Below are positions 20,172 through 60,018 of a stretch of DNA of 62,222 nt, piece by piece. Position 1 is the first letter of the stretch. The number at the start of each line of letters is the position of its first letter. The notes beneath the pieces are model-generated. The model was given only the letters and a program-made list of their open reading frames with translations. It had not been told where the DNA came from and did no database searches. The position numbers were made by a program, and so were the translations under genes. The stretch is from an uncultured Candidatus Saccharibacteria bacterium. GTDB lineage: Bacteria; Patescibacteriota; Minisyncoccia; UBA6257; 2-01-FULL-56-20. The stretch covers positions 1 to 62,222 of the forward strand of contig CAZDFQ010000003.1 in NCBI GenBank assembly GCA_964505005.1, read 5' to 3'.

Positions 20172-20300
20172 AAATTTTAATTTCCAAATCCTAATTTCTA
20201 AACAATCCGCCAGGTGACGGACAAATGACCAAAAATCAAAATCCAAAACCGTTTAGAATTTAGAGATAATGAAATTTCGTTTCCTCAATAATTAGTTCGC

Positions 20301-20376
20301 CCCGCCCGCCTGAGTTGCTCTCCCTGCCCGCCCCGCGTTGCGGAGCAAGGCAGGCGGGAGGCAAGTCGGGCGCGGT
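20301..20376. repeat. 38-bp palindromic repeat carrying a 38-bp nested insert (filled copy)
   Basis: Removing 20321-20358 gives exactly 59981-60018. Confidence 0.9.
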
Positions 20377-20381
20377 CGGCT

Positions 20382-20735
20382 TTATTCCTTGGTGGCTAAA
20401 TGGAAGATGAAATTGATGGCGCCGATAATCAATGACGAATAAATCAGCGCCGGCACGGTTTCAATAGTAAGATTCGGCGACAGGATGTCAAGAAGATAGA
20501 GGATTATGACATTGACGAGAATTAAGCCGAGGCCGAGAGTCAAGATTATTATTGGACCGAGAAAGAGTTTGATAACCGGTTTTAGGATGAAATTAAGCAG
20601 CGCGAGAACGGCACTCAGGAGCAACAAGTCGCTGATAGTGATTTTCAAATGGAAGTCGGGGATAAAATAAGCAGCGGCCAAAAGGCCGATGGCATTGGCA
20701 ATTAAAGCAACGATTATTTTGGCGATTGTCTTCAT
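20382..20735 (-). CDS. Phage-holin-family (YvlD-like) 4-TM membrane protein
   Basis: LNFILKPVIKL…PIIILTLGL pattern; four hydrophobic segments. Confidence 0.8.
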   Translation of the reverse strand: MKTIAKIIVALIANAIGLLAAAYFIPDFHLKITISDLLLLSAVLALLNFILKPVIKLFLGPIIILTLGLGLILVNVIILYLLDILSPNLTIETVPALIYSSLIIGAINFIFHLATKE

Positions 20736-21022: not shown

Positions 21023-22312
21023 TCAAACGAAACCTAAAAAGCTTTTCCGGCGGCGTTGGCGATGGAAACTAATCGTAAAACGATGGGTCTCGAAAATGAC
21101 AGCGGGAATTATCTTCTGGAGTTCAGCTGGCGCTTGGCTGAGTTTTTTTGGATTTTTTCCAAGCCCGTAAACGAGTTTTCCCGGTTTGGCAAAGGAGATT
21201 ATTTTAGCTTTTAGCTTACCGCGCCCGCTTTCGTCTTGCGAAAGCAAGGCGGGCGGGTAGCTTTTTCCGCCCGAGGCGGATCCGCTTTTGGCGGAAGCGT
21301 TTAGAAAGGTTCTTTGAGCGGCTTTGAATTGCGTTAAACCACCATCGATAATGATTAAATCTGGATACGGCCATTCCGGATGATTCAGGCGCCGGTTTAG
21401 CGCTTCCGCGATAGCCGCCGGGTCGTCGGCTGACTTGGCGGTTCGGATAATGAATTTCCGCCAGAATTTTTTTCGCGGTTTCAAGGCCTGGCCATCGAAG
21501 TACCAAGCCGTCAGGCCAGCAGCGGTTTCTTTGCCGGACAGATGAGAAACATCATAGCCCTCAATTAGATAGCTGGGTTTCTGGGTAACTGGGGAACTGG
21601 GTTGGTCAAAATTTTCGAGGAATTCCCGGTGGGCGAGGATTTTTTCCAGCGCTGTTTTTTCCTCCAGCTTTAGATTTTTTTGGATGCTCTTTAAGGGTTT
21701 CCCAAGAAGAAAATTTCTAATCAAGCAGATGTTTTTAAGATAATTTTTTGTTTCGGTCGCGGTCGGCCGGCTGTTTTTTCGGCAGCAGAATCCCGGACAG
21801 TTGCCGATTTGAGAATTGAGACAAAGGCGGAAATGGGGTTTGGGGCAGGTGCAGTAGGGGAAAGAGCGGCGCAGCATTCTCAGAACCAGGCGCAGGGCCC
21901 GACCCTCGGTGAAGGGACCGATAAGAATGGGGTTTAGGGTATAGGGTTTAGGGTGAGGGGTTTTTGATTTATGAACAACGAAGAGGCGGGGAAATTTATC
22001 TTTTGTGATTATCGCGTAAAAGTAGCTTTTGTCGTCTCGCCAGAGAACATTATAAAGAGGATTTAGTTTTTTAATCAGCTTGGACTCTTCAAGCAGCGCC
22101 TCGATTTCCGAGCGGAGCGGAATCAATTTCAGGCTGGTCGCATTTTCCCGTAGCCGCTCGCTTTTAAAATCGTCAGCCCTTAGATACGACTGCAGCCGGC
22201 TCCTAAGATTCGATGCTTTACCAATGTAAAGCGGCTGGTGTTTTTTATAGAAAATATAGACACCCGGCGTTTTCGGCGCTTTATCGATTTTTTCTCGAAT
22301 TATCTGCTCCAC
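21023..22312 (-). CDS. uvrC: Short UvrC-like excinuclease (GIY-YIG + RNase H-like domain)
   Basis: PGVYIF…LYIGKASNLRSRLQSY, EALLEESKLIK, GYDVSHLSG, PDLIIIDGG; no C-terminal HhH recognisable. Confidence 0.8.
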   Translation of the reverse strand: MEQIIREKIDKAPKTPGVYIFYKKHQPLYIGKASNLRSRLQSYLRADDFKSERLRENATSLKLIPLRSEIEALLEESKLIKKLNPLYNVLWRDDKSYFYAIITKDKFPRLFVVHKSKTPHPKPYTLNPILIGPFTEGRALRLVLRMLRRSFPYCTCPKPHFRLCLNSQIGNCPGFCCRKNSRPTATETKNYLKNICLIRNFLLGKPLKSIQKNLKLEEKTALEKILAHREFLENFDQPSSPVTQKPSYLIEGYDVSHLSGKETAAGLTAWYFDGQALKPRKKFWRKFIIRTAKSADDPAAIAEALNRRLNHPEWPYPDLIIIDGGLTQFKAAQRTFLNASAKSGSASGGKSYPPALLSQDESGRGKLKAKIISFAKPGKLVYGLGKNPKKLSQAPAELQKIIPAVIFETHRFTISFHRQRRRKSFLGFV

Positions 22313-28852: not shown

Positions 28853-28871
28853 AACTTCGTTTCCTCAATCG

Positions 28872-28899
28872 GTTCCCTGTCTGCCGGCAGGCAGGGAAC
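28872..28899. repeat. Near-perfect palindrome GTTCCCTGTCTGCCGGCAGGCAGGGAAC
   Basis: Self-complementary except for one G.T position. Confidence 0.8.
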
Positions 28900-29085
28900 G
28901 GCAATCGTCCGCCTCGGGCGGATGTTGCCTCGCTGCCGATTGGAGAAGTTAGCGGTTCTTCGACCTCGGCATTTTAGCGTGTTTACTGTTTAGGCGGGCA
29001 GCTTAATTCTTGTCAGATAGAAAATTGGCGGCTTAAGCTTCCTGCTTAATTTACAAGATGGTAGTTAATTGCTATATTCTTATGG

Positions 29086-46109: not shown

Positions 46110-46257
46110 AAAGATTCGGTGGCGCTTGTTTTCGGTAGAACGATTTTTTTGACTGCAATGGTTATTCATAAATATAATATAAAGCAGACAATCCACCAAC
46201 CACCCACCTTAACGTTTAAAAAATGTCACGGCGTATAACATTTTTTCATTTGGTTCG

Positions 46258-46333
46258 CCCCGCCCCCCTGAGTTCGCTCAGGCGACCCGCCCGCTTCGCC
46301 TTGCGAAGCAAGGCGGGCGGGAGTCGGGCGTGG
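46258..46333. repeat. Palindromic repeat with a nested insert (second filled variant)
   Basis: cccgcccccctgagttcgctcaggc…agtcgggcgtggt host with insert 46284-46321. Confidence 0.75.
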
Positions 46334-46430
46334 TCGCCGCAAATAAAACTTCGTTTTCCTTGCGGACTCGCTGCCAAATGGATGAAATTTAATTTCATTA
46401 TTTGGTTCGCTCGGCCAAAATGAAAATAAA

Positions 46431-47222
46431 ATGATTTTCACTTTGCTCTTCGTTGCCAAATGTAATAAGTTCTGGCGAAGAATATGTTTAGTCGGCCGCG
46501 GCCTCTATTTGTTCAAGGATTGGCCGACTTGGCTGGGCTACCGATTCGGAATTTTTAAAAAGAGCGGTCGTGGCGTTTTCCGGTTAAGAAACGGCGTTGT
46601 TTTCCAAGTTGATTTTTCAGCCGGCGGCCCAGGAGTTTTCCAGGAGGTCTGGCTGATGGACCTTTATGAAAAGCATTATCGGATAAAACCCGGGGATGTT
46701 ATTCTGGACATTGGCGCTCATATCGGCGCTTTCTCGGTGCTGGCCGCCCGGAAAGGCGCCAAGGTTTTTGCTTACGAGCCCACCCCCCGTTCATTCCGGC
46801 TTCTTTTGGAAAATATAAAAGACTACGATGTTTCGGCTTTTAATCTGGCTGTTTCTTCGAAAGCCGGGGAGATAAAAATACTCAGGCGCCCAGGAGGAGA
46901 AGAGGGGAATAGGCCCCTTGAGCTGGGCAGCAAGAGCAGCGAGTATTTTATCGCTTCCTCAACAACCCTCGCTGACATTTTTCGTCAAAATAACATTGAA
47001 TATTGTAATCTTTTGAAGCTTGACTGCGAAGGCGCGGAGACAACAATCCTTTCAGCCGCGCCAAAAGAATTATTCCAGCGGATAGAAAATATTTCCTTGG
47101 AGTACCATCAGAACTTTGACGAAGTAGTTAAAATTATTAAATCCAAAGGTCACAAAATTGTGGGCTCGAGCGGCCAGAAGTATGGTTATCTTTATTCTAA
47201 AAAAGCAAAATTGGTATCATAA
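46431..47222 (+). CDS. FkbM-family methyltransferase
   Basis: LDIGAHIG, YEP, LKLDCEGAE. Confidence 0.92.
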   Translation: MIFTLLFVAKCNKFWRRICLVGRGLYLFKDWPTWLGYRFGIFKKSGRGVFRLRNGVVFQVDFSAGGPGVFQEVWLMDLYEKHYRIKPGDVILDIGAHIGAFSVLAARKGAKVFAYEPTPRSFRLLLENIKDYDVSAFNLAVSSKAGEIKILRRPGGEEGNRPLELGSKSSEYFIASSTTLADIFRQNNIEYCNLLKLDCEGAETTILSAAPKELFQRIENISLEYHQNFDEVVKIIKSKGHKIVGSSGQKYGYLYSKKAKLVS

Positions 47223-59980: not shown

Positions 59981-60018
59981 CCCGCCCGCCTGAGTTGCTC
60001 AGGCAAGTCGGGCGCGGT
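59981..60018. repeat. 38-bp palindromic repeat (empty copy)
   Basis: cccgcccgcctgagttgctcaggcaagtcgggcgcggt; equals 20301-20376 without its insert. Confidence 0.9.

What the first reader, a model, noticed from the sequence alone, without database searches (positions are those of the whole stretch)
20301..20376. Filled versus empty alleles show palindromes inserting into palindromes
Seen: 59981-60018 is the 38-bp host alone. 20301-20376 is the same host with a 38-bp GC hairpin inserted after GTTGCTC. 46258-46333 is a variant host with a related ~38-bp hairpin inserted after CAGGC. The reverse complement of that insert is also in frame in uvrC (21218-21257). Inference: an active Russian-doll repeat system in which one family targets another.
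Basis: seen in the sequence. Interest (0 to 1): 0.62.

Follow-up and report, generated by a model that had tools for sequence, protein, structure and literature searches.

The report
Tiny mobile hairpins nested inside hairpins
An ultra-small groundwater bacterium (Patescibacteria) carries 36-39-base GC-rich hairpin repeats that have been pasted, letter-perfect and without any target duplication, into the loops of other hairpins, giving up to four nested layers; one of them recurs almost unchanged in dozens of unrelated sites across this phylum, so these are among the smallest mobile DNA elements seen and no known enzyme for moving them is in the genome.

Summary
Window 20301-20376 is the 38-base palindrome of 59981-60018 with exactly 38 extra bases after base 20. 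Nothing is duplicated or lost.

The same 76-base composite lies on another contig. A third, diverged copy carries a further 29-base insert.

"Host" (D) and "insert" (E) are one superfamily: CCCGCCCGC, a covarying inner helix, then GCAAG(G/T)CGGGCGGG. At 46258-46333 a 36-base E sits in a D, which itself sits in a ~130-base AT-rich hairpin repeat. uvrC carries two in-frame palindromes that relatives lack.

A metagenome scan found the E 36-mer in 54 independent contexts:
- 17 lie exactly between in-phase units of tandem heptamer arrays;
- about 10 lie inside other GC palindromes, usually at an unpaired base;
- others lie within long open reading frames.

E also occurs in other classes of the phylum. 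The genome has no Y1/RAYT transposase, TnpB or reverse transcriptase.

Best reading: non-autonomous hairpin elements pasted precisely, probably as single strands, into exposed loops. The enzyme is unknown. "One family targets another" is too narrow.

The parts
20301..20320 (+). 5' part of host palindrome D (CCCGCCCGCCTGAGTTGCTC)
   Evidence: Identical to 59981-60000.
20321..20358 (+). ins1, a 38-nt E-type hairpin (outer stem, CCGC/GCGG inner helix, AGCAAG bulge). It sits in the middle of the TCAG loop of D's predicted TTGC/GCAA helix.
   Evidence: The identical insert lies at C2:112119-112156.
20359..20376 (+). 3' part of host palindrome D (AGGCAAGTCGGGCGCGGT)
   Evidence: Identical to 60001-60018.
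20269..20300 (+). 5' half of an AT-rich R-type repeat (ATGAAATTTCGTTTCCTCAATAATTAGTTCGC). D sits at R's usual insertion point, TTCGC^.
   Evidence: Compared with R copies. The whole spacer 20178-20379 is absent from the same-genus genome G001.
59981..60018 (+). Empty copy of host palindrome D
   Evidence: Five further empty copies lie elsewhere in the genome.
46247..46380 (+). R-type AT-rich hairpin repeat (closing helix CATTTGG...CCAAATG) that contains D' and E2, giving a three-layer nest
   Evidence: (row C3:46256).
46258..46285 (+). 5' part of variant host D' (CCCCGCCCCCCTGAGTTCGCTCAGGCGA)
46286..46321 (+). E2, the 36-nt element CCCGCCCGCTTCGCCTTGCGAAGCAAGGCGGGCGGG, inserted at GGCGA^AG
   Evidence: The identical 36-mer occurs in many metagenome contexts and in G136, which belongs to another class.
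46322..46333 (+). 3' part of variant host D' (AGTCGGGCGTGG)
21219..21257 (+). 39-nt E-type hairpin inside uvrC, in frame (13 codons). Its inner helix is changed on both sides (TTTCG/CGAAA).
21265..21296 (.). B-type palindrome (TTCCGCCCGAGGCGGATCCGCTTTTGGCGGAA) inside uvrC. With the 7-nt spacer it adds 13 more codons.
21023..22312 (-). uvrC-like gene (429 aa) that carries the two palindromes in a variable linker

Best explanation
D (the 'host') and E (the 'insert') are members of one superfamily of ultra-small (36-39 nt), non-autonomous mobile hairpin elements.

Architecture: an 8-10-bp GC outer stem (CCCGCCCGC...GCGGGCGGG), an inner helix whose sequence is free but whose pairing is kept, a conserved TTGC, and a conserved GCAAG bulge on the 3' side.

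Insertion: a copy is pasted into a new site to the exact base, with no target duplication and nothing lost. In the nested cases the preferred site is an unpaired position of another hairpin (an apical loop or the foot of a mini-hairpin). In AT-rich spacers it is the junction ...TT(G/A)^G... between units of tandem heptamer arrays.

Nesting: the nests are successive insertions, R then D then E then a third element. A finished composite can then be copied as a unit, which gives the two identical 76-nt copies. Because the units are 36 or 39 nt long and E has no stop codon in any frame, they also survive in frame inside genes such as uvrC.

Inferred, not shown: the elements move as folded single strands by a cut-and-ligate chemistry like that of HUH/Y1 enzymes (IS200/IS605, RAYT). 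That would explain the missing duplication, the loop preference, the co-orientation of inner and outer elements, and the strand bias. The enzyme would act in trans and is not identified.
For: Exact filled and empty pairs without duplication:
- D+ins1, ins1+third, D'+E2, F+E, A+20 nt, C+33 nt, R+D in at least 3 R subtypes, and R+A.

One superfamily:
- Searches show shared ends and the GCAAG motif.
- 15 variants have 9 different inner-helix arm sequences. The helix pairs fully in 12 of 15 and has one mismatch in the other 3 (two of them G-T).

Independence from the host and mobility:
- the E 36-mer was found in 107 metagenome stretches. The 80 loci returned fall into 54 independent flank contexts.
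- 17 of these lie exactly between in-phase heptamer units.
- about 10 are nested in other GC palindromes. Four of those sit at the same structural spot of four different B-type hairpins, and GGCGA^ recurs four times.
- base -1 is a purine in 49 of 54 contexts and base -2 is T in 39 of 54.

Loop preference:
- ins1 lies in the centre of D's TCAG loop, and the composite folds as one extended hairpin.
- the junction touches an unpaired base in 12 of 15 nests, against 5.7 expected.

Lineage and spread:
- D/E has 10 pattern hits here, 0 in the same-genus genome, and hits in 5 of 100 relatives. The E1 copy is identical in three other genera.
- E with at most 1 mismatch occurs in three genomes of other classes.

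Empty orthologous sites:
- the spacer is absent from G001.
- uvrC relatives lack the insert.

Orientation:
- the GCAAG strand is the G-rich strand at 11 of 13 loci, and inner and outer elements are always co-oriented.
Against: - No Y1/RAYT, no TnpB and no reverse transcriptase is found in this 98.9%-complete genome.
- Y1 genes exist in 26 of 101 relatives, but in none of the 5 relatives that carry D/E. The hairpins flanking those Y1 genes are unrelated.
- No gene family recurs next to E in the 54 contexts.
- E was not found in viral contigs.
- Copy number is low (1-3 E per genome) and the 36-mer is nearly invariant across classes. That is unusual for a purely selfish repeat and may mean selection for a function.
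- No strain-level polymorphism or excision was observed.
- The three D+ins1 composites may descend from a single event.
- The loop statistic rests on predicted folds and 15 events. One boundary was chosen within its 2-nt ambiguity.
- The metagenome search was for exact matches, so the invariance is partly ascertainment.
Confidence: 0.72

Rival explanations
1. Transposase-free templated insertion. Hairpins stall replication or are cut at their tips, and repair or template switching copies another GC hairpin from elsewhere into the break, using the shared CCCGCC/GGGCGG ends as microhomology.
For: No candidate transposase was found in the genome. Insertions concentrate at hairpin loops and exact palindrome centres, for example the A family split at its exact centre and the C family at its loop. 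All families share C-rich and G-rich ends.
Against: Junctions show no microhomology (CTC^TCCC and GGG^AGG at 20320/20321 and 20358/20359). E also lands in AT-rich heptamer arrays that have neither a hairpin nor GC homology, always as the complete 36-nt unit and in phase. The unit boundaries are identical in 54 contexts, which fits end recognition better than copy-choice.
Confidence: 0.13
2. The hairpins are functional modules, for example protein-binding sites, mRNA 3' stabilisers or terminators, or RNA-processing stems. They would be kept by selection and spread by recombination or gene conversion between repeats, not by transposition. On this view the nests are tolerated stem extensions.
For: The 36-mer is near-invariant across classes at only 1-3 copies per genome. 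The inner helix covaries, as in a structure under selection. D sits immediately after a stop codon at 20376-20382. A tRNA gene is bracketed by D/E-like arms. The composite folds into one longer hairpin.
Against: Function does not explain how the same unit arrives in 54 unrelated contexts, including in-phase interruptions of heptamer arrays and long open reading frames. Both orientations relative to neighbouring genes occur: the GCAAG strand is antisense to secG and uvrC here. There is no Rfam match. A function and mobility are not mutually exclusive.
Confidence: 0.1
3. Polarity is reversed. The long composites are ancestral, and the 'empty' hosts arose by precise excision or slippage deletion of the inner hairpin.
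For: Hairpins are deletion-prone. A cut-and-paste mechanism would also create empty sites.
Against: No direct repeats flank the inner unit to support slippage. There are 6 empty D copies against 3 filled ones. E occurs alone in many contexts. The inner unit is itself a complete member of the family.
Confidence: 0.04
4. Assembly artefact at a palindrome in a metagenome-assembled genome.
For: Palindromes and short repeats can mislead assemblers. One metagenome contig (L129) joins the flanks of two different E contexts.
Against: The identical 76-nt composite lies on two contigs with different flanks, and there is a diverged third copy. The same kind of nest appears in independent assemblies and in genomes of other genera.
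Confidence: 0.01

Closest known systems
Cyanobacterial small dispersed repeats (SDR4-6; Elhai et al. [quoted passage not shown]
   Same: Both are very small hairpin repeats with no encoded protein. Both insert precisely inside another palindrome, and the mobilising enzyme is unknown in both. From my own memory of that paper, not checked here: association with tandem heptamer repeats and nesting.
   Different: SDRs are 21-27 nt and restricted to cyanobacteria. The elements here are 36-39 nt, GC-rich in a 46% GC genome, have a conserved GCAAG bulge, occur in Patescibacteria, and also sit in frame inside genes. The original paper is not in the held library, so no sequence comparison was made.
REP elements / REPINs mobilised by RAYT (Y1 HUH) transposases; GTAG/CGTC-tagged REP superfamilies (PMC3733652)
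   Same: Both are 20-40-nt imperfect GC-rich palindromes with an asymmetry that defines a strand. Both are repeated in spacers, lack a target duplication, and are probably handled as single-strand hairpins.
   Different: There is no RAYT here, nor in the D/E-bearing relatives. The copies are singletons, not inverted doublets. The 5' end carries no GTAG/CGTC tag. Copy number is low. They are also found inside coding sequence.
IS200/IS605 'peel-and-paste' single-strand transposition and its protein-less derivatives (PATEs)
   Same: There is no target duplication. The left end abuts a short target (…TTG/TTA^), as with TTAC^ for IS608. Hairpin ends are recognised, and there is a strand/orientation bias (11 of 13 loci).
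   Different: Those elements have two different subterminal hairpins and are at least 100 nt long. Here the whole element is a single 36-nt hairpin. No TnpA is present.
Yeast mitochondrial GC clusters (PMC4478555)
   Same: Both are GC-rich palindromic mobile elements in AT-rich spacers. [quoted passage not shown]
   Different: Those insert at an AG target that the paper counts as two sets flanking the element (a duplication). They are organellar, and an RNA intermediate has been proposed. Here there is no duplication and no reverse transcriptase.
Rickettsia palindromic elements (RPE)
   Same: Both are palindromic repeats that survive in frame inside housekeeping genes such as uvrC here.
   Different: RPEs are 100-150 bp, are not GC hairpins of 36 nt, and belong to a different lineage. 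Nesting in hairpin loops has not been described for them, to my knowledge.

Membership tests
REP/REPIN-RAYT system | Short (20-40 nt) imperfect palindromes repeated in the genome | tested here: met
   D and E are 36-39 nt, with about 19 copies. DNA folds give z-scores of -3.3 to -3.6.
REP/REPIN-RAYT system | A RAYT (Y1 HUH transposase, PF01797) gene in the same genome | tested here: not met
   no match in the 98.9%-complete genome, while the controls gave positive matches; 0 of the 5 relatives with D/E have one, against 26 of 101 overall.
REP/REPIN-RAYT system | Conserved GTAG or CGTC tetranucleotide at the 5' end of the palindrome | tested here: not met
   E and D start with CCCGCC or CCTGCC after variable flanks. 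Only the D2 subfamily ends ...GGGCAGGTAG, and that is on the 3' side.
REP/REPIN-RAYT system | Extragenic location; mobile unit is an inverted doublet (REPIN) | tested here: not met
   One copy lies in frame in uvrC and others lie in long ORFs. Only 1 of 54 contexts has a second superfamily motif within 4 kb.
IS200/IS605-type single-strand transposition (mechanism, non-autonomous derivative) | No target-site duplication; precise junctions | tested here: met
IS200/IS605-type single-strand transposition (mechanism, non-autonomous derivative) | Insertion 3' of a specific tetra/pentanucleotide | tested here: inconclusive
   Base -1 is a purine in 49 of 54 contexts, -2 is T in 39 of 54, and -3 is T in 32 of 54. 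The nested sites, however, use GGCGA^, CCGGA^ and GCCA^.
IS200/IS605-type single-strand transposition (mechanism, non-autonomous derivative) | Orientation bias with respect to the replication strand | tested here: inconclusive
   11 of 13 loci have GCAAG on the G-rich strand. The genome is a draft in 12 contigs and the skew is weak on some of them.
IS200/IS605-type single-strand transposition (mechanism, non-autonomous derivative) | TnpA (Y1) available in the cell | tested here: not met
Classical MITE | Terminal inverted repeats plus target-site duplication from a DDE transposase | tested here: not met
   The whole element is one hairpin, and no duplication is seen at any of more than 60 junction pairs.
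Cyanobacterial SDR | 21-27-nt hairpin repeats, precise insertion into other repeats (HIP1), cyanobacterial | tested here: inconclusive
   Precise insertion into other palindromes is met. Size and taxon are not met. Sequence relatedness was not testable because the paper is not held.
Yeast mitochondrial GC clusters | AG target present on both sides of the element | tested here: not met
   The right flank is often AG or GA, but the left flank shows no repeat of it. The feature is taken from PMC4478555.
Known structured RNA families (Rfam 15) | Match to a curated covariance model | tested here: not met
   One search finds only tmRNA in the window. One search gives only a chance-level miRNA hit (E 0.82).

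The most novel reading that the evidence does not exclude
The D/E hairpins may be a new class of mobile DNA. On this reading a single 36-nt hairpin is the whole element. It would be mobilised by a conserved host, or horizontally visiting, single-strand DNA enzyme that is not a Y1/RAYT transposase. It would home to unpaired nucleotides in extruded hairpins and to heptamer-array junctions, and it would spread horizontally across classes of Patescibacteria while staying identical to the base. Successive homing would then be a general way in which these reduced genomes build longer structured spacers, and insert peptide loops into essential proteins.
Probability: 0.2. Interest if true: 0.85.

Novelty: new variant of a known kind. 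Interest (0 to 1): 0.62.

Why it matters
Nested filled and empty pairs give base-exact ends and target sites for a repeat that otherwise looks like just another GC hairpin. That makes the question "how do protein-less mini-palindromes move?" testable in Patescibacteria.

Four points stand out:
- The unit is defined: 36 nt, CCC...GGG, no duplication, with a conserved TTGC and a GCAAG bulge.
- The target rule is simple: loops or feet of hairpins, and ...TTR^G in heptamer arrays.
- The same 36-mer spans several classes.
- No Y1/RAYT transposase, TnpB or reverse transcriptase is found in the genome.

The elements also explain part of the spacer growth and the extra in-frame loops in housekeeping proteins of these tiny genomes. 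They warn annotators that such GC hairpins are insertions, not riboswitches or terminators by default.

Tried and rejected
- Look-up of independent contigs encoding the neighbouring 117-aa protein: none on record.
- Exact host D in 100 relatives: none.
- E and D in viral contigs: none.
- Y1/RAYT, reverse transcriptase and TnpB in the genome: none.
- Hairpins next to Y1 genes of relatives: ordinary IS200-type ends, unrelated to D/E.
- Recurrent neighbour gene of E in 54 contexts: none.
- Rfam at gathering and E-value thresholds: nothing relevant.
- Simple perfect-stem hairpin count: 109 against 24-37 in Markov controls. It misses the bulged D/E members, so it was not used as a catalogue.
- Loose end-motif pairing: too permissive (608 against 375 in the control order), so dropped.
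- Crude ORF map to class copies as coding or intergenic: unreliable, because stop-free GC hairpins extend spurious ORFs. Not used.
- A universal target motif for all families: rejected. Junctions differ (CTC^, GGCGA^, TTCGC^, TTG^).
- Slippage deletion as the source of empty sites: rejected, because no flanking direct repeats exist.
- Literature: no paper in the held library joins CPR/Parcubacteria with palindromic or miniature inverted-repeat elements. Elhai 2008 is not held.

Full report
**Where we are**

The window is C3:1-62222 of an 810-kb, 12-contig, 98.9%-complete genome. The uvrC-like protein places it in Patescibacteria (Paceibacteria/Parcubacteria). Its best relatives are labelled Candidatus Liptonbacteria, Wolfebacteria and Harrisonbacteria, with a top identity of 62%. 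The same-genus genome G001 shares a contig length with the Liptonbacteria record JACQKU01.

**The observation**

The claim holds to the letter.
- 59981-60018 is a 38-nt imperfect palindrome, which I call D.
- 20301-20376 is D with 38 extra bases (ins1, 20321-20358) after its 20th base.
- The junctions cannot be slid, so nothing is duplicated and nothing is lost.
- The identical 76-nt composite also lies at C2:112099-112174 in an unrelated spacer.
- A diverged composite at C3:80040-80108 has a further 29-nt insert inside ins1, with 2 nt of positional ambiguity. One placement is GTTG^C.
- Six empty D copies exist.
- At 46258-46333 I re-place the insert. It is the 36-nt unit CCCGCCCGCTTCGCCTTGCGAAGCAAGGCGGGCGGG (E2, 46286-46321), and it follows CAGGCGA.
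- The same E unit, with one mismatch, sits at the same short target (GGCGA^AG) inside a different palindrome at C1:11441.

**The uvrC copy**

The uvrC copy (21219-21257, 39 nt) is in frame. Seven bases further on lies a second, B-type palindrome (21265-21296). Together they add 26 codons in a linker where the closest relatives have about 20-24 fewer residues.

**Host and insert are one superfamily**

All D and E variants share four features:
- a 5' CCCGCCCGC(C);
- a conserved TTGC;
- a 3' GCAAG(G/T)CGGGCGGG;
- an inner helix whose sequence varies but whose pairing is kept.

Across 15 variants from this genome and six others there are 9 different arm sequences. The helix pairs fully in 12 variants and has one mismatch in the other three, two of them G-T. 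Folded as DNA, every member is more stable than its shuffles, with z-scores of -2.2 to -4.0.

**More layers**

D itself sits inside an AT-rich double-hairpin repeat of about 60 nt when empty, which I call R. R has about 45 copies, and its closing helix covaries (CAATCGG/CCGATTG, CAATTGG/CCAATTG, CATTTGG/CCAAATG).
- Empty R copies read GGTTCGCTCGGCG.
- D is inserted at TTCGC^TCGG in at least three R subtypes.
- A different palindrome (A, CCTGCCTGCCGGCAGGCAGG) is inserted one or two bases away in six copies.

So 46247-46380 is R > D' > E2. The deepest chain seen in the genome is R-type context > D > ins1 > third element.

A generic search for pairs of loci that share 11+11-nt flanks but differ by an insertion found further nests. 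Palindrome A is split at its exact centre by 20 nt, and palindrome C is split at its loop by 33 nt. Many GC palindromes also interrupt AT-rich tandem repeats.

**Where in the host?**

In D's minimum-energy DNA fold the inner helix is TTGC/GCAA with loop TCAG. ins1 lies exactly between TC and AG, and the composite folds as one continuous, longer hairpin.

I scored 15 nested events from this genome and from metagenomes. The junction touches an unpaired base of the predicted host fold in 12 of them, against 5.7 expected from all internal positions. My own binomial estimate is about 0.001, or about 0.005 with the less favourable choice for the one ambiguous boundary.

**Is the insert independent of the host?**

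Yes, for the family. E1 (CCTGCCCGCTTCGCGTTGCGAAGCAAGGCGGGCGGG) stands alone at C1:66400. It is 100% identical in three other genera of the family.

A metagenome scan for E1/E2 gave 107 stretches. The 80 returned loci fall into 54 independent flank contexts.
- In 17, E lies exactly between two in-phase units of a tandem heptamer array, for example GAAATTG GAAATTG ^ GAAATTG, with nothing duplicated.
- About 10 are nested in other GC palindromes. Four of these are at the 3' edge of the triloop of the first mini-hairpin of four different B-type palindromes. GGCGA^ recurs four times when the two copies in this genome are counted.
- Others lie within long open frames.
- The base before the element is a purine in 49 of 54 contexts, and the one before that is T in 39 of 54.

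E with at most 1 mismatch also occurs in three genomes of other classes of the phylum. By contrast, the exact ins1 variant is seen only inside D, at one position. Its three copies therefore probably descend from a single insertion, after which the composite was copied.

**Lineage**

The D/E pattern gives 10 hits here, none in the same-genus genome, and hits in only 5 of 100 relatives. In G001 the secG-like gene and the membrane-protein gene abut. The whole 200-bp spacer that holds the heptamer-like repeats, the R half and D+ins1 is missing there. This fits a recent, lineage-specific expansion.

**Machinery**

- No Y1/RAYT (PF01797), TnpB (PF07282) or reverse transcriptase (PF00078) is detectable in the genome.
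- Y1 genes exist in 26 of 101 relatives, but in none of the five with D/E. Their flanking hairpins are unrelated.
- No gene family recurs beside E.
- E and D are absent from the viral contig collection.

**Orientation**

The GCAAG strand is the G-rich (presumed leading) strand at 11 of 13 independent loci. Inner and outer elements are co-oriented in every nest.

**Interpretation**

Shown:
- base-exact, duplication-free insertion of complete hairpin units into many unrelated sites;
- repeated nesting;
- copying of composites;
- a single superfamily with structural covariation;
- sparse but wide distribution with near-identity.

Inferred: the elements move as folded single strands through a cut-and-ligate (HUH-like) reaction that attacks exposed, unpaired nucleotides. 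This would explain why hairpin loops, and hence other palindromes, are frequent targets, why no duplication arises, and why orientation is biased.

The missing enzyme is the main weakness. Three rivals remain open: templated repair at broken hairpin tips, a selected function (which need not exclude mobility), and excision polarity. An assembly artefact is very unlikely.

**Comparison with known systems**

The behaviour is closest to cyanobacterial SDR elements. PMC4390886 cites Elhai 2008 for the precise insertion of SDR5 inside the HIP1 palindrome. It is also close to REP/RAYT and IS200/IS605 chemistry, and it resembles yeast mitochondrial GC clusters, which 'merge and shuffle' (PMC4478555), and Rickettsia RPEs, which are in-frame gene inserts.

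It fails defining tests for several of these:
- REP/RAYT: no RAYT, no 5' tag, not extragenic, singletons.
- Classical MITEs and yeast GC clusters: no duplication.
- Rfam families: no match.

I found no description of such elements in CPR bacteria in the held literature. Earlier notes of this scan on the same genome describe other GC hairpins inside MurA, an oxidase gene and mnmA. The present nests add exact unit boundaries and a target rule.

**Limits**

- There was no read-level test.
- This is a draft genome.
- The folds are predictions.
- The metagenome search was for exact matches, so invariance is partly ascertainment.
- The family catalogue is incomplete.

Noticed in passing
window 46247-46380, 46400-46470 and 28860-28950; about 45 copies genome-wide: R is an AT-rich double-hairpin repeat: a small hairpin ATGAAGCTTCGCTTCAT, then CAATYGG-TTCGCTCGGCG...CTCGCTGCC-RATTG. 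Its closing helix and small hairpin covary. It has several subtypes, and the site GGTTC(GC)^ is a hot spot hit by at least 4 palindrome families. It is not in Rfam.
   Followed up: partly
genome contig C6:47035-47190 (outside the window): A tRNA-Ile(tat) gene is bracketed by the two arms of a D/E-like palindrome (CCCGCCCGCCTTGACTTCGCC ... GGCGAAGTCGGGCGCG). The whole block lies inside a second tRNA-like sequence that is split at its anticodon loop. ARAGORN calls only the inner tRNA.
   Followed up: partly
window 20178-20260 and many spacers; metagenome loci L125, L161, L167, L183: Tandem heptamer arrays (CTAAATC/CTAATTT here; GAAATTG, GGAATTT and GATATTG elsewhere) fill spacers in this clade and are the commonest landing place of E. 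In some loci the array plus E lies inside very long open frames, for example 1558 aa in L125.
   Followed up: partly
window 21265-21296; about 22 copies genome-wide: The B family is a 32-nt perfect palindrome, TTCCGCCCAAGGCGGATCCGCCTTGGGCGGAA, that can fold as one long hairpin or as two mini-hairpins around GATC. One copy lies in frame in uvrC next to the E copy.
   Followed up: partly
genome C1:8573-8672, C1:41623-41732, C1:94232-94338, C1:217007-217107 (outside the window): These are 100-110-nt MITE-like elements with ends CCCGCCTGCCAAAGCC...GGCAATGGCGGGCAGGTA. They share the GC end motif with the small palindromes but have an AT-rich interior.
   Followed up: no
metagenome locus L129 compared with the L107 and L131 groups: One contig joins the left flank of one E context to the right flank of another. 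This is either recombination at the 36-nt element or an assembly chimera.
   Followed up: no
relatives G011, G015, G018, G061, G074, G077, G090, G098, G100 and others: Many relatives have open frames of 226-271 aa that match only the C-terminal two thirds of the Y1_Tnp model (E 1e-8 to 1e-12). This may be a clade-specific Y1-like family.
   Followed up: no
window 13870-13908-equivalent on C1 (C1:13870-13908, outside the window): A D-like 39-nt palindrome interrupts an ATGCGAAT-type repeat, apparently inside a coding region (RtcB-like by my reading of the surrounding sequence, not checked).
   Followed up: no
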